From Candidatus Rariloculaceae bacterium (GTDB taxonomy: Bacteria; Pseudomonadota; Gammaproteobacteria; Steroidobacterales; Rariloculaceae), in NCBI GenBank assembly GCA_045561025.1, contig JBJKYM010000021.1, positions 4,312 through 68,311 on the forward strand: DNA of 64,000 nucleotides, given 5' to 3'. Numbering within the stretch: position 1 is the stretch's first letter; the number at the start of each line of letters is the position of its first letter. The position numbers were made by a program, and so were the translations under genes. Positions 26,773 through 58,960 of this stretch are shown piece by piece. The notes below the pieces were generated by a model. It saw nothing but the letters and a program-made list of their open reading frames with translations. It made no database searches and was not told the DNA's origin.

Positions 26773-27777
26773 TTAGTAGACCGTGCATTCGTAGCGTTCG
26801 ATCTCTTCGCCGAATGCCATCCAGTATCTTTCGTAAGTGGCAGGCCCGGAGAAGATCGTCGGATCGGCCAGGACGAACTGATAATCGAGCCGTGATTGAT
26901 CGGCACTCAAGGTAAAGCGCTCTACGATCTCTACGTCTTCTGTCTGCGGCGTACCAAGATTGTCGAAGTAGGGCCAGTTAATCAGGGTCGTATTCACAAT
27001 CAGAGTCGACCCATCCCAGCGACCTGTCGAGTAACCCAGCATGGAAGCGGCAGTCCCGGCAGGCGGCGCATCGTGGTCCATATGGATGGTGCGCTCGAGA
27101 TCATAGAGCTCGGAAATCACCCGGATCCGGTCGCCATCGTCAACGAACTCGAACGGATGGGGATTACGCATCAGCCGCGGCATTCCACCGCCCTCGCAGT
27201 TCTCTGCGAAGTTATCGATCTCATCCCACTCAGCGCGTGCCGCGAGAGCGTAGTCGGTGAACGGAAAGTCTGTCGTCTGCCCAACAAAGTTAGGCACACC
27301 GCTCCAGACACGGTAGATAACGCGATTCTCGGCGGCCGCATCGACCGTGCTGGTCGATGTCTGGTGTGGAGCGAACTCGGCCACGTCCGCGTTCGACCAG
27401 TGCAGCGCCACATTCGGTGCCAATAGAATTTCCCTGCCGTTCTCAAGCAACATGTTGCTCGTGAGCATGTCCCGCTCACGTCTGACAGAGACGCTTCCAA
27501 GAAACGCCACCTGCTCGCCGATCGTAAAGAAGCTCTCGTCGATTCCACCACGCCGCATGCTGCCGAGATTGGACGCGCCTTCTATTCGCCACTCCTCGAT
27601 CTGTCCGTCCTCATTGGTCACGTTAATTGTGAAACCGACATGAGGATTAACCCAGTGAACGGCGACAAGTTCACCGGCCAACTCCTGAACCTCGTCAGGG
27701 TAATGTGAACGCGAATGATGCGCAGCCGCCGAGAGCGGGACCGAAAGTGCTAAGACGATAACGGCACGGCTATTCAT
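26773..27777 (-). CDS. DUF6152-like exported two-domain protein (paralogue 1)
   Basis: Signal peptide then HHS...G.L..V.WVNPH; second domain C...GMP..M..P.P, RTIHMD, GYSTGRWDG, ERFTL, DP, YEC. Confidence 0.8.
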   Translation of the reverse strand: MNSRAVIVLALSVPLSAAAHHSRSHYPDEVQELAGELVAVHWVNPHVGFTINVTNEDGQIEEWRIEGASNLGSMRRGGIDESFFTIGEQVAFLGSVSVRRERDMLTSNMLLENGREILLAPNVALHWSNADVAEFAPHQTSTSTVDAAAENRVIYRVWSGVPNFVGQTTDFPFTDYALAARAEWDEIDNFAENCEGGGMPRLMRNPHPFEFVDDGDRIRVISELYDLERTIHMDHDAPPAGTAASMLGYSTGRWDGSTLIVNTTLINWPYFDNLGTPQTEDVEIVERFTLSADQSRLDYQFVLADPTIFSGPATYERYWMAFGEEIERYECTVY

Positions 27778-28837
27778 GTCCTTTCCGAAGTCGTTGCTCC
27801 ACTACGAATCGACTCGTCGATTCTTCGTCACAGTCGAACGGGGTCGAAACATGATCGGGCTGATAGATCATTTCTCTATCGTGGGTCATCGGTGCGACGA
27901 AGTACTCGGGGTCCTCGAGCAGGAAGTCGAGCAGGATTCGAGTACCGTCTTCGCTGAGTTCGTAACGCTCCACAACGTGTTTCTCCGCGCCGGAAGGAAT
28001 TCCGGTCTGATAGGGAGAGCGGTGATCTTCGAAATTTCGGGTGTCGACGATCAGCACATTCTCCTCCAGCGTGCCGATTGAGTGCCCTGTCTGAAAACGC
28101 TGACTGATATCGGGATGCGGGCGGCCGTCCATATAGACGATGCGTTCTTCATCGAAGAAATCGCTACGGATCGCGATCCTGTCACCACCGTCGAGATATT
28201 CGATCTGTATAGGATAAAGAATCGAGGAGATAATCATGGCCGGCGTGGGCCGCCCGACGCAGGTCGCGTTCGGGTTCTCATCGGTGAGTTCGGAATATGC
28301 AGTCTGCGCCGCAGCGCCTTTCTCGTTCGGCGTCAGCTGTGCGCGAAAAAATCCGTCGAAACCGCCCGGATAGTCGACGAGCTTGTCTCCATCGGAGGCC
28401 CAGAATCCCTCCAGCGTTGTCGTGCTCTCGGTCACCTCCGGCGAGTCAATACGTGGCTCGTATGATGTGCCGTAGAACGCCGCGCCCAGTGGAATTCCGC
28501 CTTCCTTCTCGATTGACTCGAGCAACGCGTAGGGGCGCCCGTCAATGGCTGGATGAGCTGCGATTGTGACCCGATCTCCAGGCACCAGCGAATCACGTGT
28601 CCAGCCGCTACGTGAAACCGTCATCGTCGAGCTCGTCTGCACCGACCATTGCACCGTCTCGCCGTTATCGTCCAGGGTATCGACGACGACATACACATGC
28701 GGATTACGCCAGGCGTACTCGACGACCGTGCCATCAAAGGTCAACGTGGTCTCCATGTCGAGTCCTGCGTCGCTGTGATGAGCCGCTGCCGGTAGAGAGA
28801 CGGCAGCGGACGCCGCAAGCAATACCCCTAATCTCAT
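27770..28837 (-). CDS. DUF6152-like exported two-domain protein (paralogue 2)
   Basis: AAA|HHS, WRNPH, GWTRDSL.PGD; second domain RIVYMDGRPHP, GHSIG, ERYEL, DPEY, FDCD. Confidence 0.8.
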   Translation of the reverse strand: MRLGVLLAASAAVSLPAAAHHSDAGLDMETTLTFDGTVVEYAWRNPHVYVVVDTLDDNGETVQWSVQTSSTMTVSRSGWTRDSLVPGDRVTIAAHPAIDGRPYALLESIEKEGGIPLGAAFYGTSYEPRIDSPEVTESTTTLEGFWASDGDKLVDYPGGFDGFFRAQLTPNEKGAAAQTAYSELTDENPNATCVGRPTPAMIISSILYPIQIEYLDGGDRIAIRSDFFDEERIVYMDGRPHPDISQRFQTGHSIGTLEENVLIVDTRNFEDHRSPYQTGIPSGAEKHVVERYELSEDGTRILLDFLLEDPEYFVAPMTHDREMIYQPDHVSTPFDCDEESTSRFVVEQRLRKGHE

Positions 28838-34297: not shown

Positions 34298-34691
34298 CTC
34301 ATTCTCCTTTGTCGTGGTTTAAGTCTGTGTCGTCGGAACGCTCGCTGGAAAAGATTCGTGCGAGAACCCATCGAAATTCGCTACAGCAGGAAGAGATCCG
34401 CAATCTCCAGTGCCCAGCCCGCCCCGTAGAACAAACCCATATAGACGGGGTGGCTGGCGAGAAAGCGCCGTAGCCTGAAACTGGCGGCCCCCGTTCTTCG
34501 ACGGGATCGGTAGGTACTGGAAATCGAACTACTCATCTTCTCTATCCTTCTACTCGTTATTTCGATCGTCTCTCGCGCGGCTTCTTTGCTGCGGCGATTC
34601 GACTTGAGCACAACGATAGATTCCCGCTATGATCTCCATAAGATGGATATAAGACAAAAACGGTTCTTTTGTGCCACAAAAGGGGAAAATC

Positions 34692-35723
34692 GTGGAAAAA
34701 CCCGCGAATCAGCCCGTTAGCGTGATTGTTGTTGCCGTGCCCGAGACGGCCGGCTCTGCGCTCTACGGCATGGTCGATGTTCTGCTCGCGGCCGGAAATA
34801 TCTGGCAGACGCTGGTCGGGACGGAATCCGGGAGCAAGCCGTTTCGCGTACAGATCCTCTCGCCCATCGAGGAACCGTTTGTTTGTGGCAATGGGATTCC
34901 GATAGCGCCGGAGTTATCGGTTGCCGACGATCCGAATACGGAGATCCTGATCCTCCCCGAACTTTGGCTGGGCCCGGACGAACACATGGGAGGCCGCTAC
35001 CCCGAGCTGATGGAATGGATACGCCGACAGCACGAACGGGGCACCTCAATTTACTCCGCCTGCTCCGGCGCCATCATGCTTGCCGAGACCGGAATACTGA
35101 ATAACTGCGATGCGACGTCGCACTGGGGCTATCAGGATCTCTTTCGCCGGCACTATCCAAAAGTAAAGTTTCGCCCCGAGCCCAACCTCGCGTTTGCCGA
35201 TTCCACGGGCCAGGTGGTTACCGCCGGCGGAACGACTTCGTGGCATGACCTCGCAATCCACATCATCTCGAGGCATTGCAGTCCGGGTGAAGCCTTGCGA
35301 ATCGCCAAGGTCTATTTATTGAAGTGGCACGGCGAAGGGCAGCTGCCCTACGAAACGCTGGTCAGAAATAATCCTCATGCGGACGCAATCGTAAAGAGTT
35401 GCGAACAGTGGCTCGCTGAACACTATCGAGAGCAAGGCGTCATTCCGCAGGTCGTCGAACAAGCAGAGATTCCGGAGAGAACACTGAAACGCCGGTTCAA
35501 GATCGCGACCGGCTCGTCCCTGATCGAATATCTGCAGAATCTCAGAGTCGAAGAGGCGAAGCGTCTACTGGAGGCTGGTCGAATGCCGGTCGATGACATC
35601 AGCTACGCGGTCGGCTATGAAGACGCTTCGTTCTTCCGCCGATTATTCAAGCGGCGAACAGGCTTGACGCCCAGTCAGTACCGCAAGATGTTCAAACCGG
35701 TGCTCGCGGCTGCGGGCGGATAA
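34692..35723 (+). CDS. GlxA-family transcriptional regulator (DJ-1/PfpI + AraC)
   Basis: SACSG..MLAETG, ATSHW, TAGG, ERTLKRRFK.ATG, VGYED.SFFRRLFKR.TG; start uncertain (34671 or 34692). Confidence 0.93.
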   Translation: MEKPANQPVSVIVVAVPETAGSALYGMVDVLLAAGNIWQTLVGTESGSKPFRVQILSPIEEPFVCGNGIPIAPELSVADDPNTEILILPELWLGPDEHMGGRYPELMEWIRRQHERGTSIYSACSGAIMLAETGILNNCDATSHWGYQDLFRRHYPKVKFRPEPNLAFADSTGQVVTAGGTTSWHDLAIHIISRHCSPGEALRIAKVYLLKWHGEGQLPYETLVRNNPHADAIVKSCEQWLAEHYREQGVIPQVVEQAEIPERTLKRRFKIATGSSLIEYLQNLRVEEAKRLLEAGRMPVDDISYAVGYEDASFFRRLFKRRTGLTPSQYRKMFKPVLAAAGG

Positions 35724-38367: not shown

Positions 38368-39078
38368 TCAGGCAGGCTCGCCTATCGCAATGACGAACAA
38401 GACCGCGTAGTCCTGCTTGTTGCAGCCCTCAACTGGAGGCATTTCCGCGCCGGGTGTCACTGGGAACTCTCTGATCTGCGCCTTCTCGGGCGAGCAGGAG
38501 TCAGTCCCTTCGGCCGGCGTGTAACGCGCGGAACGACAGCGAAGATGCGTAACGTCATAGACGGTTGCACCGTCGCGAAGCTCCCAGCGATGACTGCCGT
38601 CGCCCGCCTCGGGATGAACGGTCAGCACGCTGACGACCTCACGGTCTCCTGTGACGAGGTATTCGCCCGAAGCGAGCGGAAAATCCGGCTGCTCCATGAT
38701 CAGGCCGTTCTCTTCCAGCCACCAATCGGTGTTGTCGAATTGCCAGTCCGCCGGCGCCACGCCACCGGCTTCCTGTAGCTGTTGATAGCGGTTCAATCTA
38801 ACGCCGCGCGGGCCGGGGTCGAGTCGCCACAGGCCCCATTCCTCAGCGTTGCTCCCGCTCGTCGCATCGGGGTCGGCGAGCGCGGCGATGAACTGCGTTC
38901 GAACTCTGCGAAAGTTCGTTTCGGCCTCACCAGCGGACTGCGCCAATACGGCCGGTGACAGGGCCGCGGTGGCAGCCGCAGCCGTACCGGCCGCAATGAA
39001 TGAACGGCGGGTCAGCTCATCGCTGCACGGTTCCAATCTTGAACGCCCGGACATGCGATCTTCGTCTGCTCTACTCAT
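38368..39078 (-). CDS. Tat-exported hypothetical protein
   Basis: LTRRSFIAAG twin-arginine signal; Trp-rich core (WGLWRLDPGPRG, DWWLEENG), three C-terminal Cys. Confidence 0.78.
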   Translation of the reverse strand: MSRADEDRMSGRSRLEPCSDELTRRSFIAAGTAAAATAALSPAVLAQSAGEAETNFRRVRTQFIAALADPDATSGSNAEEWGLWRLDPGPRGVRLNRYQQLQEAGGVAPADWQFDNTDWWLEENGLIMEQPDFPLASGEYLVTGDREVVSVLTVHPEAGDGSHRWELRDGATVYDVTHLRCRSARYTPAEGTDSCSPEKAQIREFPVTPGAEMPPVEGCNKQDYAVLFVIAIGEPA

Positions 39079-39127
39079 CAAGGATCCTCCCCAGCCAACG
39101 AAACCATATTCTAGCAATAGCCCGGCG

Positions 39128-43499
<4,372 letters not shown>

Positions 43500-43503
<4 letters not shown>

Positions 43504-44780
43504 TCTTCACTGAGCGGCGCTGCGATGCCGACGCCCGTCAAGCGTTCAATTTCAATAACAACCTGGTGTGCGCCGATATTGGCTTCGAGCAGCTCGTTGT
43601 TGGCTGCAAGCAGATCCGCGAGCACAGTGCTCCACTCGAAATAGCTGTAACGTCCAAGCTCGTAGGCTCTGCGCGTATCGGCGAGCGCGCTCTCGATACT
43701 GGGTATGACATCCGCCTCGAGACGGGCAGCGGTCTGCGTGAAGTGTCGTAACTCCTGCCAGAGCACGAACAGCATCGTCTCGACGCGAACCCGGGCAGCA
43801 TGGGCTTCCGCATCGGTTCGCGCTCGGTTCGCACGTGCGGCAGCTATGCGCCCTTCATTCTTGTTGCCCATTGTTATCGGTATGGAGACGCCACCAACGA
43901 ATGCGAATTCATCGACAACGTCGAGGTGGCGTACGCCGCCGTAGACGGTCCAGCCCGGTTTCGCCTGCGCCTCGGCAAGCAACAGCTGCGCTTCGTAAAG
44001 ACGCTGCTCCGACATGTAGCGCAACAGCTCCGGGTTCTGGTTCGCTCTCGCCACAAGCGACTCAACGGGCTCCATGACGGGAAGCACGCCAAGATCTCCG
44101 CTGACCGAGCCGAATGCTGGTCGAGTTTCTCCCCACTGCGCGCTCAGCCGGTAGTAGGCGGATATCAACTCGTGTTGGTAGTCCTCCTGAACGAGCTCCG
44201 CTCGTGCGAGCTCAGCCTCGGCGCGCGACAACTCGGCATCGAGCGCCCTGCCGGCGGCGATCCGTACCTCCACGGCGGCAATAATTTCCCGTGCGAAACG
44301 CACGCCATCGATAGCCGTCTGCAAACGATCCTGAAACGCCATGCACGCGACAAAACGGCGCGCGGTTTCGGCCGCGACATCGAGTCTGGCAATCTCCGCG
44401 TCGGTTCTGCTCATCTCCACAGCCGCATTAGCGGCATCGACCCGATTCTCTCGGACGCCACGTTCCAATACCCAGGCGAGCGAGATAGTCAGGCTGGCGG
44501 GATTGGCAGTCTCGTAATCACCCGTGCCGAAGACATCCTGGAGCGCAATATCGAGCTGCGGATACGGCTTCAGATCGGCCTGCAGCAGCAAGCCCTGAGC
44601 CGCCTCAGTCTGATAGCCGAATGCAATGAGCTCGGGATTCTGCGATATCGCCTTTGCGAGCGCCGTTGGCAGAGCGACAGGCGGTCCCGACAGCGACAGG
44701 TCGTCCTGCGCCACAGTCGTCGCCGCGAATATCGTCAGGCTAAGGCACGCGAATACCCGGCGTGCGTGTAGACCCCACAT
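43500..44780 (-). CDS. czcC: TolC-family outer-membrane efflux protein
   Basis: Signal peptide, two NPEL repeats, GVSIP...NEG.I, AYELGRYSY.E; overlaps the czcB start. Confidence 0.9.
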
Positions 44781-44889
44781 AGAACAGATCTCCTGTAACC
44801 GATCAGCCTCCGTACCGTTGAGATACGGATAGACTGAAGTACGCGCTCAATGAGCGCAGTGCTGAGTCGAAAGACTCGGTATTTAGGAG
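44781..44889 (-). promoter_or_regulatory. Predicted multibranch mRNA structure sequestering the czcC Shine-Dalgarno
   Basis: Nested pairs CUCCU/AGGAG, ACCGA/UCGGU and UCAGC/GCUGA, plus hairpins GUC/GAC, GCGCUC/GAGCGC and UCCGUA/UACGGA. Confidence 0.7.
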
Positions 44890-45305
44890 GCGAGCGGGGG
44901 CGCGCGCAAAGGAGGTCGCCAATGCTCGTGACGCCCGAGCGGGCGCAGAACGGCGGCGACAGGAGAAAGCGTATCGGCCGGGCGAAGTACCATCAGCAGG
45001 AACAGCGCGAGCGCGATCAGATCAAGTGGCAGCTTCGACAGCGCGGTGTTGAGATCGAAGATCGAGATATCGATCTCGGTCGTATGGCCCTGGCCAGCGG
45101 CGTGCTCATGCGAGGCATGTTCATGGGCGGCCGGAGCATTATCGTGGTGTGCGGCTGAATCGTGGTGATGCGCGTCATGCAGGTGCGTGCCTTCCGGCGT
45201 ACCCGCAAAACCCTCAGCATCCACATGCATGTGCAGCCCGCTGGCCTGAATCGCAACCAGGCTAAGGCAGGCAAGCAACATCAACGATGTCGAGAAACGG
45301 CGCAT
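44883..45305 (-). CDS. His-rich leader protein with a C-terminal RAPP motif (CzcI/DUF2946-like position)
   Basis: N-terminal hydrophobic signal, 16 His, second hydrophobic helix, ends HEHWRPPLRAPPLAS*. Confidence 0.85.
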   Translation of the reverse strand: MRRFSTSLMLLACLSLVAIQASGLHMHVDAEGFAGTPEGTHLHDAHHHDSAAHHDNAPAAHEHASHEHAAGQGHTTEIDISIFDLNTALSKLPLDLIALALFLLMVLRPADTLSPVAAVLRPLGRHEHWRPPLRAPPLAS

Positions 45306-45374
45306 ATTCTCAGTATATCAGGCAAAAATGGCCAATTTCTGTGTCGGAAAACCGAAATTGGGCCGCGAATTCCC

Positions 45375-46715
45375 CTATATCTGCGACAGGCGGGTAACTG
45401 CCGAGACATCGGCGGCCGAATCGAGGCCCCAGACGGCCGCCTCGAGGTCTTCGACCTGCTGCTGCGGCAACACCTCACCCGCGAGTTCACGATATTTAGT
45501 CGTCAGCGCCTCATCCGACATCGGTCTCGTCGGCGAGCCGGTCGCGTGCTCAATATGCTTCTCGAGCGACGTGCCGTCGGTGAGTACAATGGTGAGATAG
45601 ACCTCTTCTTCCCGCACCGACTCATCAACGGTAGCCGAGACTTTCGCTCGGACACCGGCGATGACCGGGTCCTGCACTTTTTCATCGGAGAACTGCGCGT
45701 CGTGGCCGGCGCCATCAACAAGGGCTGCAGCCGCACAGTGCTGGAACGAGAACTTGCCTTCGAGGCCGACGCGAGGCTCGGCGCGATTCATCAACTCGAT
45801 GACGAGCGGATGAACCCGCGCTTTGATCGACTCGATCTGGTCGGCTTTCAGTGAGTGTTCGTTGCGCAGTTCGATAACGGCCTGCTGAATCGGATGAGAG
45901 ACGATGCCATTGGCGAATGGCTTCAGGCCGTTCATCCTGAATTCCCAGCGCTCACCGAAGTCGCCGAGTAACGCATCCTCGGAATGTCCATCCGCCGAAT
46001 GCACGGCCCAGAAACCACGACGGCCGGCAATAATGTCGTCGCCACCCATGAAGCCGTGCTGCGCCCAGGTCGCGGCGCGAAGCCCATTCTCCGCCGCATG
46101 TCCGGCATGCAACGGCTTACCGTGCGTACCGAAAACTTCGCGCACGCCGGCAGCAAGCGTACCGGCAACACCGAGTGCATTGGTTAACTGGCTGGTATCG
46201 AGTCCGGTAAGCCGAGCGCTACCGGCAGCGGCACCGAATACACCTGCGGTTCCTGTGATATGCCAGCCCTGATCGTAGTGCCAGGGATGTACGGAGATGG
46301 CGACGCGGCATGCTATCTCCGCACCCAGCACGAAAGCGGCCAGCGTGTCGCGACCCGACGTTCCCGCTCGTTCGCTAAGGGCCAGTACCGCAGGCCAGAC
46401 CGGTGCTGTCGGATGCAGAATGGTCGGGAAATGCGTGTCGTCGTAGTCCTGAAGGTGGCAGAGAAAGCCATTGACCAGCGCGGCGTTGCTGGCCGAAGTC
46501 TTCAGCTTCGTGCCGATTACGGAGGCCTGCTCGGAAGAAGCTTCCTCTCGCGCCCAGTCGAGCATGATGCCCGCGCCCTCCGATCTGGAGGCCGACAGGC
46601 TAATCGCGAACATATTGAGCAGCGTTCGCTTCGCTTCATGCATTGACCAGGCGGGTAACGCAGCAGCGTCGGTCGACACGACAAACTCTGCCAGCGACTG
46701 GGTGACAGTCTTCAT
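45375..46715 (-). CDS. MmgE/PrpD family protein
   Basis: ALVNG..CHLQDYDDTH...HP, GWHITGT, KPLHAG, KPFA....SH, EGKFS, GSP.RPMS. Confidence 0.93.
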   Translation of the reverse strand: MKTVTQSLAEFVVSTDAAALPAWSMHEAKRTLLNMFAISLSASRSEGAGIMLDWAREEASSEQASVIGTKLKTSASNAALVNGFLCHLQDYDDTHFPTILHPTAPVWPAVLALSERAGTSGRDTLAAFVLGAEIACRVAISVHPWHYDQGWHITGTAGVFGAAAGSARLTGLDTSQLTNALGVAGTLAAGVREVFGTHGKPLHAGHAAENGLRAATWAQHGFMGGDDIIAGRRGFWAVHSADGHSEDALLGDFGERWEFRMNGLKPFANGIVSHPIQQAVIELRNEHSLKADQIESIKARVHPLVIELMNRAEPRVGLEGKFSFQHCAAAALVDGAGHDAQFSDEKVQDPVIAGVRAKVSATVDESVREEEVYLTIVLTDGTSLEKHIEHATGSPTRPMSDEALTTKYRELAGEVLPQQQVEDLEAAVWGLDSAADVSAVTRLSQI

Positions 46716-48534: not shown

Positions 48535-48968
48535 TGACGATTGAGGTTCGTATCGCTGATTTCGAGAAAGAACAGGAGTTTCTGCGTCTGATCCGATTTA
48601 TGGTATTCGTCGAAGAGCAGCAGGTGCCGGCGGAGATGGAGATGGATGATGAAGATTTAGTCTGCATCCATGTACTCGCACTATACGAAGGCGAACCCGT
48701 CGGCACGGGACGTATCGACATCGGCAAGGCCGGCAAGATAGGTCGCGTCGCAGTTCTCAGCTCAAGGCGCCGGCAGGGGGTCGGTGAGGCAGTGATGACG
48801 TTGCTGCACGATCTTGCGCGGCAGAACGCACTTGCCGGCGTCTGGTGCAACGCACAGGTATCGGCTGTACCGTTCTATGAGAATCTGGGGTATCGCGTCA
48901 CGAGTGCAGAACCCTTCGATGAGGCGGGCATTCCGCATCTGCGGATGGAATACGACTGCTCGTCCTGA
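48534..48968 (+). CDS. GNAT N-acetyltransferase (ElaA/YjcF-like)
   Basis: IR..VFVEEQQVP..E.D, IGRVAV..RRQGVG, NAQ..AVPFY..LGY, FDEAGIPH. Confidence 0.93.
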   Translation: MTIEVRIADFEKEQEFLRLIRFMVFVEEQQVPAEMEMDDEDLVCIHVLALYEGEPVGTGRIDIGKAGKIGRVAVLSSRRRQGVGEAVMTLLHDLARQNALAGVWCNAQVSAVPFYENLGYRVTSAEPFDEAGIPHLRMEYDCSS

Positions 48969-49026
48969 ACTGGGTAGAATCGGGGGATTGGCATCGACAG
49001 AACCTAGTTCCTGTAAGAGGGAGGCG

Positions 49027-50025
49027 ATGATGAGATCGATCGTTGAGCGGTCTGGCGTAGCGCTCGCAACACTCTTGATCATGCTACCCGCGGTGGCGCA
49101 TCACAGCCGTTCCGTATTCGATCGGGATCGCGTCGTTACGATTGAGGGTGTCGTGACCGAGTACGAGTGGGCTAATCCGCACGTCACTGTATTCGTCGAG
49201 ACAACGAGCGATTCGGGCGATGCCGTCGTCTGGGCGTTCGAGGGCGGTGCGACCACGTACCAGAAAGGCCGGGGATGGACGAGCGACATGCTCGCTCCCG
49301 GCGACCATGTCATCGTCGAGGGCAATCCTCTGCGGGCTGCCGACGCGACGACCGCGGATGTTATTTCGGTCCGAAGAGCAGGCGTTGCCGCAATGCCGGA
49401 GGGGAGCGAACCCGAAGTCTTTCGAGCCGATGGCCTATCCGGGATCTGGTTTATTCCCCAGAACGCCTCGCATAGAAAATTCTCTACGCCTTCTTCCTAC
49501 CCCTGGTCTTTTACACCCGGGGGTGCTGACGCTTTCGCGACCTACGATGACAGGACGATGAATCCACAGAACGAGTGCGGTGCCCGTACGGCTCCGTGGC
49601 TCATGACCTGGGGCGTATTCAGCATCGAGGTGGGTGACCGCCTGACGTTCATTCGCACGGAGTTCGATACCGTAGAGCGAACTGTTTATATGGACGCCAT
49701 GTCTCACGACGGTACTGCCGTCACGACGCAGGGTCACTCGATCGGCCGGTGGGAGGACGACGTTCTGGTTATCGACACGACTCATTTCTCCGATCACCGC
49801 ATCGGCAACGGTCGAGGCATACCGTCAGGCACGCAGAAACACCTCGTCGAACGCTTCGAGTTGAACGCCGACGCAACAGGACTAACATACCACTTCGAAC
49901 TTGAGGATCCGGAGTATCTGTCCTCTCCGACCTCAGGCGCGCTGCCGGCGGCGTATCGACCGGATCTCGGCTTCGAATCTATAACGTGCGACCCGGAGGT
50001 TGCACGGCGGTTTCTGGATGAATAG
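49027..50025 (+). CDS. DUF6152-like exported two-domain protein (paralogue 3)
   Basis: AVA|HHS..FD, EWANPH; RTVYMD, GHSIGRWEDD.LVIDT, ERFEL, DPEYL, CDPE. Confidence 0.8.
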   Translation: MMRSIVERSGVALATLLIMLPAVAHHSRSVFDRDRVVTIEGVVTEYEWANPHVTVFVETTSDSGDAVVWAFEGGATTYQKGRGWTSDMLAPGDHVIVEGNPLRAADATTADVISVRRAGVAAMPEGSEPEVFRADGLSGIWFIPQNASHRKFSTPSSYPWSFTPGGADAFATYDDRTMNPQNECGARTAPWLMTWGVFSIEVGDRLTFIRTEFDTVERTVYMDAMSHDGTAVTTQGHSIGRWEDDVLVIDTTHFSDHRIGNGRGIPSGTQKHLVERFELNADATGLTYHFELEDPEYLSSPTSGALPAAYRPDLGFESITCDPEVARRFLDE

Positions 50026-52068: not shown

Positions 52069-53160
52069 TTATTCTTTTATGTGCCGGCCAGCCGCCTGCG
52101 GGTCGCACCCGTAGTTGTCCTGGAACGGATAACCCACATCGAGTGCCAGCGTCGTGGTCAGAGAGACCGGCTCGGTCAGATAAACAGGATCCTCGATCGT
52201 GTAGCTGATCTCCATTCGTCGCCCTTCCTCCGTCAGCGTCAGTCGCTCTAACAGATGCTTCTCGGCACTCGAGGATACGCCGCTCCCGATACCCCACTCT
52301 GCTGCCGTGAAGTAAGCGGTGTCGACGACCAGCGTCTCTCCTTCGAACCAGCCGATTGAGTGACCGAGTTGAGAGAGCACCGTATCGGCCGGATGTTCGG
52401 TCTGGCCTAAGTGAATCACACGCTCGACGTCATTGATCTCGTGTCGAATCACGATCCTGTCGTTATACCGAGTGAATCGGTGCGCGCCCACACCGGAGTA
52501 GAGCCACGGGGGGGTCTTGGAAATACAGCGAAACCAGGGATTGTCCTCTACGTTCCAACCATCGAGTTCGGCCTGGCCAAGCACCGTCAATGGCAGACCA
52601 GTTGCTGCATTCTGTCCGCCCAAAGAGGGGCCTGCGGGAGCACCACCGCCCATACCCATGCCCATTCCGCCGAAGCCGAAAGGACCGCCGAGCGATACCC
52701 AGATCCCGCTGAAGTCCTCGGAAGTAGCCGTCGTATCGACCTGCCGTCGTTCAGTCTGCGGTATCGAAGCGGGCGCGCTCCCCGGTGCTGAAGCCATCGT
52801 GCTGCCGTCCGGCAGCAGCCAGTAATTCGAGTAATACAGATTCTTATCAGGGTCTTTATCTGCGTTGGCGAAAACCGTCACTTTATCGCCCACGCTGAGG
52901 GTATCGCGCGTCCAACCGGCACGGTTCAGGACTGAGATCGAGTTCAGCTCCATCAGCAGTTCTCGCGTCTCAACGGACTCGTTCTCGACGGCCACCGTTA
53001 CAAAGGTGTGCGGATTTCGCCAGCTGTACTCGGTAATGACACCCTGAAACTCGTGCAGGGTCTCAAGGTCGAAGTTGTTGCGCGAATGGTGGGCCCACAC
53101 AGTCGTGGTCAATCCGGCAGCGAGCACAACGGCTACTGGCAACGGTCGCAGAGGTGTCAT
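52069..53160 (-). CDS. DUF6152-like exported two-domain protein (paralogue 4)
   Basis: VWA|HHS..FD, SWRNPH, GWTRDTL; NPWFRC, GHSIGWFEG.TLVVDT, ERLTL, DPVYL, GCDP. Confidence 0.8.
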   Translation of the reverse strand: MTPLRPLPVAVVLAAGLTTTVWAHHSRNNFDLETLHEFQGVITEYSWRNPHTFVTVAVENESVETRELLMELNSISVLNRAGWTRDTLSVGDKVTVFANADKDPDKNLYYSNYWLLPDGSTMASAPGSAPASIPQTERRQVDTTATSEDFSGIWVSLGGPFGFGGMGMGMGGGAPAGPSLGGQNAATGLPLTVLGQAELDGWNVEDNPWFRCISKTPPWLYSGVGAHRFTRYNDRIVIRHEINDVERVIHLGQTEHPADTVLSQLGHSIGWFEGETLVVDTAYFTAAEWGIGSGVSSSAEKHLLERLTLTEEGRRMEISYTIEDPVYLTEPVSLTTTLALDVGYPFQDNYGCDPQAAGRHIKE

Positions 53161-57973: not shown

Positions 57974-58960
57974 ATGATCATGAGATTTGCAACGTGTTTC
58001 CTCTCGCTCGCTGTACTGCCGGTAATCGTGAGCGCCCATCACTCCTTCTCTATTTACGACAGGTCAGTAGTCCACGAGCTTGAGGGCGAGCTGGTTGGCG
58101 TGCGCTGGCGCAATCCGCACGTGATGTTTACCGTCCGGGCGGAAGACGACGACGGGCAGCTTCAGGATTGGGAAGTCGAATCAGCAGCCGTCTACGTAGT
58201 CGAGAGATCCGGCGTGCAGGAAAGCATGCTCGATGGAGTTGAGTACGTGAAAATAGCCGGTTGGCGCTCTCGGGATAATTCGACAATGCAGGTCACGAAT
58301 ATTCTGCTACCCGACGGCAAGGAAATTCTGCTCTCGGCTCATGTAAGCGAGCGCTGGTCGGATGATGTCGCCGGTGGGCAACTCGCAGGCGAGCGCGTCA
58401 ATCGCGCGGAGCTCGATCTGTTTCGGGTCTGGAGCATTGAGGATATTGGCGGCTACGGTCGATCGGTAGAGGAAAGCGATATCATCCTGACCGATTCGGC
58501 GAAAGCCATCCTGGCCGCCTCGCCCGAACTCGATGTCTGCGACCCACAGGGCATGCCCGCGATCATGCGAAATCCTCTTCCGATTGAATTCGTCGATAAC
58601 GGCTCAACGATCGAGCTGCAAATGAATACATTCGGCGTCGTGCGAACGATCCACATGAGTGACATAGCTGATGAGGCGACGATACCGCTCTCCAAGTTCG
58701 GTTACTCGGTCGGCGAGCGCACGGGCGATACGCTGGAAGTTCGCACGACTCGCGTGGGCTGGCCCTATTACGACGACAACCGAACGCCACAGTCAGAGAA
58801 CGTCGTGATAACGGAAGAGTTCACGCTCGTCGATGACAAGACACGCCTGAACTATAGCGTGACCGCTACCGATACCGATTCGTTCATCGAGCCTATAACG
58901 ACGCGCTGGTATTGGGCGGATATCGGTGAAGGCGATGTAGAAATTACCAGGTGCGAATGA
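57974..58960 (+). CDS. DUF6152-like exported two-domain protein (paralogue 5)
   Basis: VSA|HHS..YD, RWRNPH; CDPQGMP.IM.NP.PIEF, RTIHM, GYSVG, WPYYD, EEFTL, RCE. Confidence 0.8.
   Translation: MIMRFATCFLSLAVLPVIVSAHHSFSIYDRSVVHELEGELVGVRWRNPHVMFTVRAEDDDGQLQDWEVESAAVYVVERSGVQESMLDGVEYVKIAGWRSRDNSTMQVTNILLPDGKEILLSAHVSERWSDDVAGGQLAGERVNRAELDLFRVWSIEDIGGYGRSVEESDIILTDSAKAILAASPELDVCDPQGMPAIMRNPLPIEFVDNGSTIELQMNTFGVVRTIHMSDIADEATIPLSKFGYSVGERTGDTLEVRTTRVGWPYYDDNRTPQSENVVITEEFTLVDDKTRLNYSVTATDTDSFIEPITTRWYWADIGEGDVEITRCE

What the first reader, a model, noticed from the sequence alone, without database searches (positions are those of the whole stretch)
44778..45305. Candidate metal-sensing ribosome-arrest switch: His-rich RAPP leader plus an SD-sequestering multibranch RNA ahead of czcCBA
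Seen: the 140-aa ORF has an N-terminal export/TM segment, 16 His, a second hydrophobic helix, and exactly 30 residues later ends its RPPLRAPP motif, three residues before the stop. On the mRNA, CUCCU across the last codons and stop (44889-44885) is complementary to the czcC SD AGGAG (44794-44790). Nested inside are ACCGA/UCGGU (44880-76/44802-798) and UCAGC/GCUGA (44865-61/44807-03), with three hairpins (GUC/GAC, GCGCUC/GAGCGC, UCCGUA/UACGGA), so almost the whole 102-nt spacer folds. Known: RAPP is the stalling motif of ApdA/ApdP, and the CxxC-containing leaders CruR and CutF control downstream copper-related genes translationally. Inference: a ribosome paused on RAPP would cover the anti-SD and open czcC. 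The input would be metal binding by the exported poly-His loop and/or membrane insertion of helix 2, about one tunnel length upstream. A poly-His version without CxxC controlling an RND pump would be a distinct variant. No czcRS/cusRS or MerR regulator flanks the operon.
Basis: partly seen in the sequence, partly recalled or inferred. Interest (0 to 1): 0.85.

Follow-up and report, generated by a model that had tools for sequence, protein, structure and literature searches.

The report
His-rich stalling leader before metal pump
A small histidine-rich membrane peptide that ends in a known ribosome-stalling motif sits in front of a heavy-metal efflux pump operon and most likely switches the pump's translation on by unmasking its ribosome-binding site, a histidine-based variant of a copper-sensing mechanism already described.

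Summary
ORF 45305-44883(-) encodes 140 aa with 16 His, two hydrophobic helices and WRPPLRAPP three residues before the stop. In the MFE fold, CUCCU (44889-85) pairs with the czcC SD AGGAG (44794-90); z = -4.3. One proposed nested helix is paired differently.

It belongs to a sizeable family. An unbiased search found 124 cluster representatives, and 113 end in RAPP or RGPP. The family occurs in 39 of 400 sampled genomes of the class. In 147 of 160 loci a czcC-like gene starts 30-124 nt downstream. Two clades keep the SD-closing helix with compensatory changes. The anti-SD lies about +9 to +14 nt from the stall codon.

Helix 2 starts about 45 residues from the stall site, where membrane insertion is reported to begin pulling on a nascent chain. 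New here: the leader looks leaderless, with a -10 box 6-7 nt before the ATG in most of 91 loci and no SD in any.

Most likely (0.68) this is a CutF/CruR-like arrest-peptide switch. It is histidine-based, has a second helix, and escapes Pfam DUF2946. Stalling and metal input are inferred, not shown. CutF-like leaders before RND genes and His-only clusters are already published, so I rate it a new variant of a known kind, interest 0.6.

The parts
45312..45320 (-). Extended -10-like promoter element TGaTATACT. Six nt (gagaat) separate it from the ATG, so transcription would start at or next to the A of the ATG, giving a leaderless mRNA.
   Evidence: Read. A TAnnnT hexamer ends 6 nt (55) or 7 nt (34) before the conserved ATG across 91 distinct homologous upstream regions (hexamers counted per gap, so a locus could count twice). 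SD-like motifs occur in 0 of 91, and G at -14 in 66 of 91. The consensus promoter scan, which needs a -35, found none. The TSS is not mapped.
44883..45305 (-). Leader ORF of 140 aa (P0001): candidate metal-sensing arrest peptide.
   Evidence: The ATG lies 22 codons before G[LVI]HxH in 91 of 106 distinct loci. The public protein collection holds it as a 132-aa call starting at M9.
45234..45296 (-). Residues 4-24: N-terminal hydrophobic export signal or first membrane helix, preceded by MRR.
   Evidence: Hydropathy. AF2 helix 2-22. Cleavage was not tested.
45051..45233 (-). Residues 25-85: His-rich loop with near-invariant H25xH27 and H41xH43. Predicted coil; presumed periplasmic.
   Evidence: Invariant or near-invariant columns in A1 and A2. 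AF2 pLDDT is 54-61 here. Metal binding is inferred.
44985..45032 (-). Residues 92-107: second hydrophobic helix (stop-transfer type), followed by a strongly basic linker.
   Evidence: Present in 106 of 114 family members. Its last residue lies a median 28 aa (IQR 26-29) before the P-site Pro. The conserved xK just before it lies 46 aa before the P-site Pro in 57 of 88. Linker net charge has a median of +6.
44895..44921 (-). Codons for W129-RPPLRAPP-137: the arrest motif. [quoted passage not shown]
   Evidence: Invariant in A1. R[AG]PP in 113 of 124 representatives. All synonymous codons are used. The stall geometry is taken from ApdA/ApdP structures (PMC10951233) and is not tested here.
44885..44891 (-). 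Anti-SD GCCUCCU, spanning the last two sense codons and the first base of the stop: +10 to +16 from the first base of the P-site codon.
   Evidence: Its position is conserved relative to RAPP. Tail codons are pyrimidine-rich, 0.78 against 0.54 for the rest of the ORF.
44781..44882 (-). 102-nt structured spacer: three internal hairpins enclosed by the anti-SD:SD helix.
   Evidence: No Rfam family matches.
44790..44794 (-). czcC Shine-Dalgarno AGGAG.
   Evidence: Unpaired probability is 0.015 in the free RNA and 0.494 when the RNA up to P-site +15 is held single-stranded.
43500..44780 (-). czcC-like outer-membrane factor (P0002).
   Evidence: PF02321, E 4e-37.
42253..43503 (-). czcB-like periplasmic adaptor (P0003).
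   Evidence: HlyD_D23 and the CzcB/NccB subfamily model.
39128..42238 (-). CzcA/CusA-family RND pump (P0004). It carries [15 protein letters not shown] in its sequence.
   Evidence: TIGR00914, 1449 bits. The motif is seen. Reading it as the divalent-cation HME signature is recalled, not tested.

Best explanation
The 140-aa ORF is a regulatory leader, not primarily a finished protein.

Proposed sequence of events:
1. Transcription probably starts at its AUG, from an extended -10 promoter, giving a leaderless mRNA.
2. The nascent chain is targeted to the membrane by its N-terminal signal.
3. The His-rich loop (HxH...HxH) is exported.
4. Helix 2 follows as a stop-transfer segment.
5. [quoted passage not shown]
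6. At that moment the N-terminal end of helix 2 is about 45 residues from the peptidyl-transferase centre. That is the distance at which a transmembrane helix is reported to begin pulling on the chain.
7. How long the arrest lasts should therefore depend on how well the loop and helix 2 engage the membrane, and I infer that metal bound by the His loop changes this.
8. A ribosome held at RAPP covers or unwinds the mRNA to about +15. This removes the outer CCCCGC:GUGGGG helix and the anti-SD (+10 to +16), frees the czcC SD and allows czcCBA translation.
9. Once the ribosome leaves, the spacer refolds and hides the SD again.

Shown by computation: the family, the conserved motif, the gene context, the conserved spacer architecture and the spacing.
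Inferred: stalling itself, the metal input, the topology, and the direction of control. For an efflux pump, metal should prolong the arrest, as copper does for CutF.
For: 1. Motif. WRPPxRAPP is invariant in 21 close homologues. R[AG]PP lies 1-11 residues from the C-terminus in 113 of 124 representatives found by full-length phmmer (87 RAPP, 26 RGPP; the tail is 3 aa in 51). All synonymous codons are used, so selection acts on the peptide. RAPP and RGPP are the two strongest and most avoided arrest tetrapeptides (PMC12992588, passages).
2. Context. 147 of 160 loci have a czcC-like gene starting 30-124 nt downstream, and 76 of those are at 90-99 nt.
3. RNA.
- z = -4.29 for the window's spacer.
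- SD unpaired probability has a median of 0.042 native, 0.206 with the upstream part shuffled and 0.295 with a ribosome-at-RAPP constraint, n = 71.
- Clade A (18 sequences): 88.8% of cells paired against 28-56% when slid, 8 of 14 pairs with double changes, 0 of 500 shuffles as high.
- Clade B (20 sequences): 88.2% against 44-56%, 11 of 19 pairs with double changes.
4. Anti-SD position. It starts +4 to +20 from the P-site codon in 80 of 120 distinct loci. In loci with tails of 5 aa or more it stays near RAPP in 15 of 19 and near the stop in 1 of 19.
5. Geometry. Helix 2 is present in 106 of 114 members. Its start, marked by the conserved xK, lies 46 aa before the P-site Pro in 57 of 88. Transmembrane helices begin to pull when their N-terminal end is about 45 residues from the PTC (PMC7886326, passages).
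6. Folding. There is no confident fold: Atlas model pLDDT 0.56 and AF2 65.4 with a coil loop.
7. Regulators. No metal regulator was found within about 15 kb.
8. Precedent. CutF melts an SD-shielding stem-loop by stalling, and CruR uses a RAPP motif three residues before its C-terminus.
Against: - No experiment and no RNA data exist for this organism; no RNA-holding run was listed.
- SD/anti-SD complementarity alone is not special. Duplex energies with segments taken 60 and 120 nt upstream in the ORF are as good (-13.4 and -13.3 against -13.5). A segment 120 nt upstream gives 7-bp-or-longer helices in 51 of 114 loci against 55 of 114 for the native segment.
- The fair flank-covariation test is modest: 2.43 against 2.14 extra bp, with 72 of 10,000 permutations as high.
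- The modelled stall opens the SD only partly. The median is 0.295, and only 9 of 71 loci exceed 0.5.
- The SD core is nearly invariant, so most pairs of the closing helix cannot covary. Only 1 of 5 pairs in clade A and 2 of 5 in clade B show double changes.
- Loci were fished with a pattern containing WRPP[LN]RAP, so motif conservation in those loci is by construction.
- Metal binding on the periplasmic side would naively add pulling force and shorten the arrest, which is the wrong sign for an efflux pump.
- No homology to canonical DUF2946 is detectable beyond RAPP.
Confidence: 0.68

Rival explanations
1. The ORF encodes an ordinary small bitopic or hairpin membrane protein that binds metal, acting as an accessory or trans-acting factor of the pump in the manner proposed for CzcI. 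RAPP would be a structural or interaction motif. The spacer helix would give only ordinary translational coupling.
For: The signal peptide, His loop, helix 2 and basic tail form a plausible membrane protein. The His positions are conserved. Any translating ribosome would open the helix, so stalling is not strictly required. CzcI upstream of czcCBA is suggested to be a metal-sensing regulator (PMC9973294, passage).
Against: The most conserved segment is the last 9-12 residues, and they match the strongest arrest tetrapeptides, which proteomes avoid. Only RAPP and RGPP alternate at that position. Tail codons look constrained at the RNA level. There is no confident fold. Helix 2 keeps a fixed distance to RAPP, which a cytoplasmic tail of a finished protein would not need.
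Confidence: 0.12
2. It is an arrest peptide, but the output is CruR-like. The stalled ribosome blocks Rho-dependent termination or mRNA decay in the spacer, rather than unmasking the SD.
For: CruR, with RAPP three residues from its end, works this way (PMC9426467, passages). The modelled stall opens the SD only partly.
Against: The spacer is short at 102 nt and strongly structured, z = -4.29. Its composition is balanced, C 27 and G 25, unlike a C-rich, unstructured Rho-loading site. The SD is part of the conserved closing helix in two clades. The CruR intergenic region is 162 nt.
Confidence: 0.1
3. The arrest monitors membrane-insertion or secretion capacity, as MifM and SecM do, or envelope stress. 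It does not monitor metal, and the histidines are incidental.
For: The helix 2 to RAPP geometry fits a force-released arrest. Known RAPP leaders mostly monitor Sec or YidC.
Against: The downstream genes are a heavy-metal RND pump in 147 of 160 loci, not Sec or YidC. HxH...HxH is near-invariant and the median is 11 His per protein.
Confidence: 0.07

Closest known systems
CutF of Rhodobacter capsulatus (cutFOG operon; CutF-like/DUF2946 superfamily)
   Same: [quoted passage not shown] In both, a stem-loop between the leader and the next gene shields that gene's SD, and stalling is proposed to melt it. CutF-like genes most often precede RND outer-membrane (OEP) genes. Sources: PMC9973294 passages and section 10; preprint 10.1101/2025.02.05.636593, sections 3 and 23.
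   Different: CutF senses Cu through CxxxC and stalls at PPP with EF-P involvement. This leader has HxH...HxH, only one Cys (in the signal) and WRPPLRAPP. It also has a second hydrophobic helix, which 115 of 118 canonical DUF2946 proteins lack. It precedes a CzcA-type pump and appears leaderless. The published His-only clusters (14 and 17) are reported next to HupE/UreJ, not RND pumps.
CruR (Bp2923) of Bordetella pertussis, the DUF2946 prototype
   Same: [quoted passage not shown] There is an N-terminal export signal. The spacing between the sensing motif and RAPP is conserved: 45 intervening residues in CruR, against 45-46 here from the conserved K and the start of helix 2 to the stall codon.
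   Different: CruR uses CXXC and controls Rho-dependent termination in a 162-nt spacer upstream of a TonB-dependent importer. Copper relieves its stalling. Its TSS is 45 bp upstream of the start codon, so it is not leaderless. P0001 has no PF11162 hit, and hhalign aligns only RAPP.
ApdA / ApdP / SecM-type RAPP arrest peptides
   Same: All carry a R-A/G-P-P core near the C-terminus of a small exported or membrane protein. The arrest is thought to be released by pulling force, and the downstream SD is unmasked.
   Different: Those leaders regulate Sec or YidC components and sense export capacity. Here the target is a metal efflux pump and the presumed input is metal.
CzcI of Cupriavidus metallidurans
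   Same: It is a small ORF directly upstream of czcCBA, suggested to be a metal-sensing regulator (PMC9973294, passage).
   Different: It is reported to lack the C-terminal proline motif. No CzcI sequence was compared here.

Membership tests
DUF2946 (PF11162; CruR/CutF) | Match to the Pfam model | tested here: not met
   P0001 has no hit at E <= 1. Of 101 relatives, 17 hit, best E 2.3e-7. The own genome has no match over the cut-off.
DUF2946 (PF11162; CruR/CutF) | Conserved CXXC / CXXXC metal motif | tested here: not met
   P0001 has 1 Cys, in the signal segment. CxxC or CxxxC occurs in 4 of 113 motif-bearing representatives.
DUF2946 (PF11162; CruR/CutF) | C-terminal RAPP a few residues before the stop | tested here: met
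   RAPP at residues 134-137 of 140. R[AG]PP in 113 of 124 representatives.
DUF2946 (PF11162; CruR/CutF) | Profile-level homology outside the RAPP motif | tested here: not met
   hhalign of A2 against 33 canonical DUF2946 proteins gave probability 0.5%, with 7 columns aligned. The canonical set is one narrow (Hydrogenophaga-type) branch, so a distant link is not excluded. One Atlas neighbour cluster carries PF11162 on 16% of its members.
DUF2946 (PF11162; CruR/CutF) | N-terminal export signal | tested here: inconclusive
   MRR plus a hydrophobic 4-24 segment and AF2 helix 2-22. No signal-peptide predictor was available.
DUF2946 (PF11162; CruR/CutF) | Heads an operon of metal-homeostasis genes | tested here: met
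   czcC-like gene downstream in 147 of 160 loci. czcCBA in the window.
RAPP-type ribosome arrest peptides | [quoted passage not shown] | not testable with these tools
   Needs toeprinting, cell-free translation or ribosome profiling. No RNA run was listed.
RAPP-type ribosome arrest peptides | R-A/G-P-P core near the C-terminus of a small exported or membrane protein | tested here: met
CutF/SecM-type SD-shielding switch | The downstream gene's SD is paired with RNA that a ribosome stalled at the arrest site would cover | tested here: met
   Prediction only. CUCCU:AGGAG in the window, with the anti-SD at +10 to +16. Recovered in two clades. Positions tallied, accessibility modelled. Weakened by the controls.
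Leaderless mRNA | Transcript starts at the start codon, with no SD | tested here: inconclusive
   A -10-like hexamer lies 6 or 7 nt before the ATG in most of 91 distinct loci (55 at 6 nt, 34 at 7 nt), and no SD-like motif occurs in 0 of 91. The TSS is not mapped.
HME-RND (CzcCBA-type) efflux system | OEP + adaptor + CusA/CzcA-family RND pump in one operon | tested here: met
   PF02321, HlyD_D23 and TIGR00999 (the latter below its cut-off), and TIGR00914 at 1449 bits against a cut-off of 701. Metal specificity was not tested.
CzcI | Sequence similarity to C. metallidurans CzcI | not tested
   No CzcI sequence was fetched. The literature says CzcI lacks the proline motif.

The most novel reading that the evidence does not exclude
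This is a self-contained sensor-regulator for a czcCBA pump that needs no regulatory protein. A leaderless transcript begins with a nascent-chain sensor. Its arrest at WRPPLR(A/G)PP is timed to the instant when a stop-transfer helix begins membrane insertion, with its N-terminal end about 45 residues from the PTC. Divalent metal bound by the exported HxH...HxH loop alters that insertion force and so sets how long the czcC SD stays unmasked. On this reading it would be a histidine-based, force-gated class that is independent of DUF2946 by sequence, and it would be the main heavy-metal efflux control in roughly a tenth of sampled species of this class (named loci are marine and sediment Gammaproteobacteria).
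Probability: 0.35. Interest if true: 0.75.

Novelty: new variant of a known kind. Interest (0 to 1): 0.6.

Why it matters
Heavy-metal RND pumps are textbook targets of two-component and MerR-type regulators. If this reading is right, a large group of uncultured marine and sediment Gammaproteobacteria controls czcCBA without a regulatory protein, through a nascent peptide that reports on metal across the membrane.

The family offers three things for study:
- a natural test bed for how an exported His-rich loop and a transmembrane helix modulate a RAPP arrest, because the spacing falls exactly where insertion force begins;
- a histidine and divalent-metal counterpart to the cysteine and copper systems CutF and CruR;
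- a set of about 120 diverged natural variants for covariation and design of metal-responsive translational switches.

It also shows that Pfam DUF2946 misses a whole branch of such leaders. Annotation pipelines either call them hypothetical proteins or start them at the wrong Met.

Tried and rejected
- RNAalifold on a broad MAFFT alignment of 59 spacers gave 0 pairs. The alignment was too poor, so I replaced it with clade-wise alignments.
- The duplex-energy test of cognate against non-cognate 5' and 3' segments gave -13.5 against -12.45, with 3 of 10,000 permutations as low. Control segments inside the ORF were equally good, so the test does not discriminate.
- The first flank-extension test was biased, because the register was chosen on the cognate sequences. 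The fair version gave only a modest excess.
- The consensus promoter and terminator scan of 44700-45500 found nothing.
- Rfam gave only a chance-level hit on the other strand, E 0.26.
- A Pfam scan of 10 Cys-containing family members found one weak DUF2946 hit, E 0.038.
- hhalign against canonical DUF2946 aligned only RAPP.
- Sequencing runs: no RNA holder was listed. There were 20 DNA holders in 8 studies of marine or aquatic metagenomes, one of which may be the source.
- Complex prediction, fold search and search_dna_similar were not used.
- I considered and rejected the M9 start used by the gene caller (132 aa). It removes the basic n-region, whereas the ATG at 45305 is positionally conserved with a -10 box in front of it.
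- Supplementary files of PMC9973294 (SSN cluster logos and lists) and PMC9426467 (Table S1) are closed. I could not check whether this His-rich family is already among the 5,334 listed CutF-like proteins.
- Not-in-print claims rest on searches and on the passages read.
Full report
OBSERVATION. The minus-strand ORF 45305-44883 translates to 140 aa ending ...HEHWRPPLRAPPLAS*. It has 16 His and one Cys, and two hydrophobic stretches at residues 3-25 and 88-113 by 15-mer hydropathy. AF2 predicts helices at 2-22 and 92-106. RAPP occupies residues 134-137, 30 residues after the end of helix 2 (L107) and three residues before the stop.

The RNA from 44900 to 44770 folds at -51.7 kcal/mol. Dinucleotide shuffles give -35.8 +/- 3.7, so z = -4.29. 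In window coordinates the MFE contains the following helices:
- an outer helix, CCCCGC 44899-94 (the two Pro codons) : GUGGGG 44778-73 (the czcC start region)
- ACC:GGU
- hairpins GAGUC/GACUC, GCGCUC/GAGCGC and UCCGUAUC/GGUACGGA

There GCUGA pairs with UCAGUC 44837-32 instead.

Downstream on the same strand lie an OEP (czcC-like), a CzcB-like adaptor and a CusA/CzcA-family RND pump. Upstream is a PrpD/MmgE gene that ends 70 nt before the leader. Pfam scans of the ORFs of at least 180 aa from 27770 to 58960 found no two-component, MerR or ArsR regulator.

A CONSERVED FAMILY. A word-indexed search found 21 relatives, and W129, P131, P132, R134, A135, P136 and P137 are invariant among them. An exhaustive phmmer search of 1.84 billion cluster representatives found 124 proteins at E <= 1e-3, with 39 at E <= 1e-10. 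Of these, 113 carry R[AG]PP close to the C-terminus: 87 RAPP and 26 RGPP. The tail after the motif is 3 aa in 51, 4 aa in 22 and 5 aa in 16. The 11 without the motif include apparently truncated or frameshifted proteins and one 1028-aa protein.

The rest of the protein is only 30-55% identical to P0001. The near-invariant positions outside the motif are G23, H25, H27, H41, H43, D79 and K91. Only 4 of the 113 have CxxC or CxxxC, and the median His count is 11. At the DNA level every synonymous codon is used across WRPPLRAPP (n = 123 distinct loci), so the peptide is what is conserved.

In a sample of 400 genomes of the window's class, 39 carry the family. That count includes the window's own genome and one unpublished genome. 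Canonical DUF2946 was found in 3 of 151 genomes. The own genome, a MAG of 1.84 Mb and 57% completeness, has one copy.

CONTEXT. I fetched 79 loci from species genomes and 80 from metagenomes. The species-genome loci are nearly all labelled Gammaproteobacteria MAGs: Woeseiaceae, Halieaceae, Rariloculaceae, Azotimanducaceae and Porticoccaceae. These scans used peptide patterns that include WRPP[LN]RAP, so presence of the motif in them is by construction. Their value lies in context and RNA.

Of 160 loci including the window, 147 have the leader followed by a czcC homologue starting 30-124 nt downstream, and 76 of those are at 90-99 nt. Five loci were too short to judge. Four had no leader by my pattern, and four had no OEP.

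SPACER RNA. Across 71 distinct loci I computed the probability that the SD core is unpaired. The median is 0.042 in the native RNA. It is 0.206 when everything upstream of the SD is dinucleotide-shuffled. It is 0.295 when the RNA up to 15 nt past the first base of the P-site Pro codon is held single-stranded, to mimic a ribosome arrested at RAPP. For the window the three values are 0.015, 0.313 and 0.494. The loci are related, so the Wilcoxon p-values overstate significance.

Alignment-based structure prediction failed on the whole set but worked within clades.
- In the window's clade (18 sequences), RNAalifold recovers the anti-SD:SD helix and two hairpins. 88.8% of cells are standard pairs, against 28-56% when partners are slid. 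Eight of 14 pairs show changes on both sides, and 0 of 500 shuffles reach the observed values.
- In a second clade (20 sequences) with different hairpin sequences, the same plan appears: a closing helix through the leader's tail codons and the SD, a central hairpin, and a hairpin just 5' of the SD. 88.2% of cells are paired against 44-56%, and 11 of 19 pairs show double changes.

Because the SD is fixed, the closing helix itself shows little covariation: 1 of 5 pairs in the first clade and 2 of 5 in the second.

Two controls limit the claim. Segments taken from inside the ORF are as complementary to the SD region as the true 3' end; the Leu-rich helix 2 codons in particular supply CUCC strings. 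A fair cognate against non-cognate test of helix extension is only modestly positive, 2.43 against 2.14 bp, with 72 of 10,000 permutations as high. The evidence is therefore the conserved architecture and position, not the complementarity as such.

POSITION RELATIVE TO THE STALL SITE. In 80 of 120 distinct loci the dominant partner of the SD starts +4 to +20 nt from the first base of the first Pro codon of the PP pair. The modes are +9 to +11 for 3-aa tails, +14 for 4-aa tails and +10 to +13 for 8- and 11-aa tails. Among the 19 loci with tails of 5 aa or more, the anti-SD is near RAPP in 15 and near the stop in 1. Most of these long-tail loci belong to one clade.

Tail codons are 78% pyrimidine, against 54% for the rest of the ORF, and they encode mostly Leu and Ser. 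That fits a tail whose sequence is set by the RNA helix. [quoted passage not shown] In the window this puts the anti-SD at +10 to +16, at the leading edge of the ribosome, and puts the outer helix inside it.

The ATG at 45305 lies exactly 22 codons before the G[LVI]HxH motif in 91 of 106 distinct loci. In those 91 upstream regions a TAnnnT hexamer ends 6 nt before the ATG in 55 cases and 7 nt before it in 34. None has an SD-like GGAG, GAGG or AGGA in the last 15 nt. G at -14 occurs in 66, suggesting an extended -10. In the window the sequence is TGaTATACT-gagaat-ATG.

The leader is therefore probably translated from a leaderless mRNA, and the promoter leaves little room for an operator. CruR, by contrast, has a TSS 45 bp upstream. 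The TSS here is unmapped, and no RNA run holding this sequence was listed.

GEOMETRY OF THE NASCENT CHAIN. Helix 2 is present in 106 of 114 members. Its last hydrophobic residue lies a median 28 aa (IQR 26-29) before the P-site Pro. The conserved xK that immediately precedes it lies 46 aa before the P-site Pro in 57 of 88. The linker carries a median net charge of +6, which suggests an N-out, C-in orientation and a periplasmic His loop.

[quoted passage not shown] The arrest point is thus placed at the onset of helix 2 insertion. Canonical DUF2946 proteins lack such a helix: 3 of 118 have one, against 106 of 114 here.

COMPARISON WITH WHAT IS KNOWN. Three sets of papers bear on this.
- The DUF2946/CutF-like leaders are described as metal-sensing arrest peptides. 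CruR has CXXC and RAPP three residues from its end and controls Rho-dependent termination (PMC9426467, abstract and passages).
[quoted passage not shown] That work lists 5,334 CutF-like proteins in 29 clusters, names OEP genes of RND systems as their most frequent neighbour, and notes two His-only clusters next to HupE/UreJ.
- A 2025 EMBO J paper shows that RAPP and RGPP are the strongest and most avoided arrest tetrapeptides and are enriched at the C-termini of small exported proteins upstream of metal genes. Its main text does not contain the words efflux, RND or TolC (PMC12992588, passages).

Membership in DUF2946 fails on sequence.
- P0001 has no Pfam hit. Only 17 of 101 relatives give a hit, the best at E 2.3e-7.
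- hhalign against 33 canonical members aligns only RAPP, at probability 0.5%.
- There is no CXXC.
- The Atlas places it among unnamed clusters. One neighbouring cluster carries PF11162 on 16% of its members.

It therefore works like CutF and CruR but is not demonstrably a member. Convergence on RAPP, or divergence beyond recognition, are both possible.

MECHANISM AND RIVALS. My best reading (0.68) is a CutF-type translational switch. Arrest at RAPP holds the ribosome on the anti-SD and frees the czcC SD. The length of the arrest is set by engagement of the exported His loop and helix 2 with the membrane, and metal modulates that engagement.

The direction is inferred from physiology, since an efflux pump should be induced by metal. 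The naive expectation that periplasmic metal binding adds pulling force argues the other way, so the direction is open.

The rivals are:
- a plain metal-binding membrane protein with ordinary translational coupling (0.12);
- a CruR-like Rho or mRNA-stability output (0.10);
- a metal-independent insertion monitor (0.07).

The pump carries [15 protein letters not shown]. I recall this as the signature of divalent-cation HME-RND pumps. That would fit a His-based sensor, but I did not test it.

NOVELTY. The principle is published. Four things are not described in the text I could read:
- a His-only leader with a second helix and WRPPLR(A/G)PP, placed before czcCBA-type pumps;
- its apparent leaderless start;
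- the roughly 45-residue placement of helix 2 relative to the stall site;
- the fact that Pfam does not capture the family.

The supplements that list the published clusters are closed, so the family may already be tabulated there. I rate it a new variant of a known kind, interest 0.6.

LIMITS. Everything is computational. Loci are related, so counts are not independent. Folding is thermodynamic prediction. The ribosome footprint is modelled as a simple constraint.

Noticed in passing
window 45303-45320 (-), and L002-L160 upstream regions: A -10-like hexamer sits 6-7 nt before the leader's ATG in most of 91 distinct loci, with no SD in any, so the leader ORF appears to be on a leaderless mRNA. 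The public gene call starts 8 codons later, at M9 (132 aa).
   Followed up: yes
window 44773-44778 with 44894-44899 (-): The czcC start region (the G of AUG plus UGG GG; the protein begins MWG) pairs with the Pro-Pro codons of RAPP in the MFE. Many homologous czcC genes also begin AUGUGG. Conservation of this outer helix was not quantified.
   Followed up: partly
window 38368-39153 (-): A 261-aa ORF with a weak TAT-signal match (E 0.0011, below the cut-off) overlaps the end of czcA by 26 nt. It may be a fourth operon gene. It has no other family hit, and its conservation in other loci was not checked.
   Followed up: no
window 27770-28837 (-), 48814-50025 (+), 52069-53160 (-), 57974-58960 (+): Four paralogous genes with a DUF6152 domain lie within about 31 kb around the operon. 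Their function is unknown.
   Followed up: no
L081-L098 and L002-L006 (window's clade): In relatives with 8- or 11-residue tails after RAPP, the leader's stop codon lies in the loop of the first spacer hairpin (GAGUCxCUAGACUC) while the anti-SD stays next to RAPP. It looks as if the stop moved while the RNA plan stayed.
   Followed up: partly
window 34671-35723 (+): An AraC-family regulator fused to a DJ-1/PfpI domain is the only regulator found within about 15 kb. It lies 3.4 kb beyond the operon's end on the other strand, and there is no evidence that links it to the pump.
   Followed up: no
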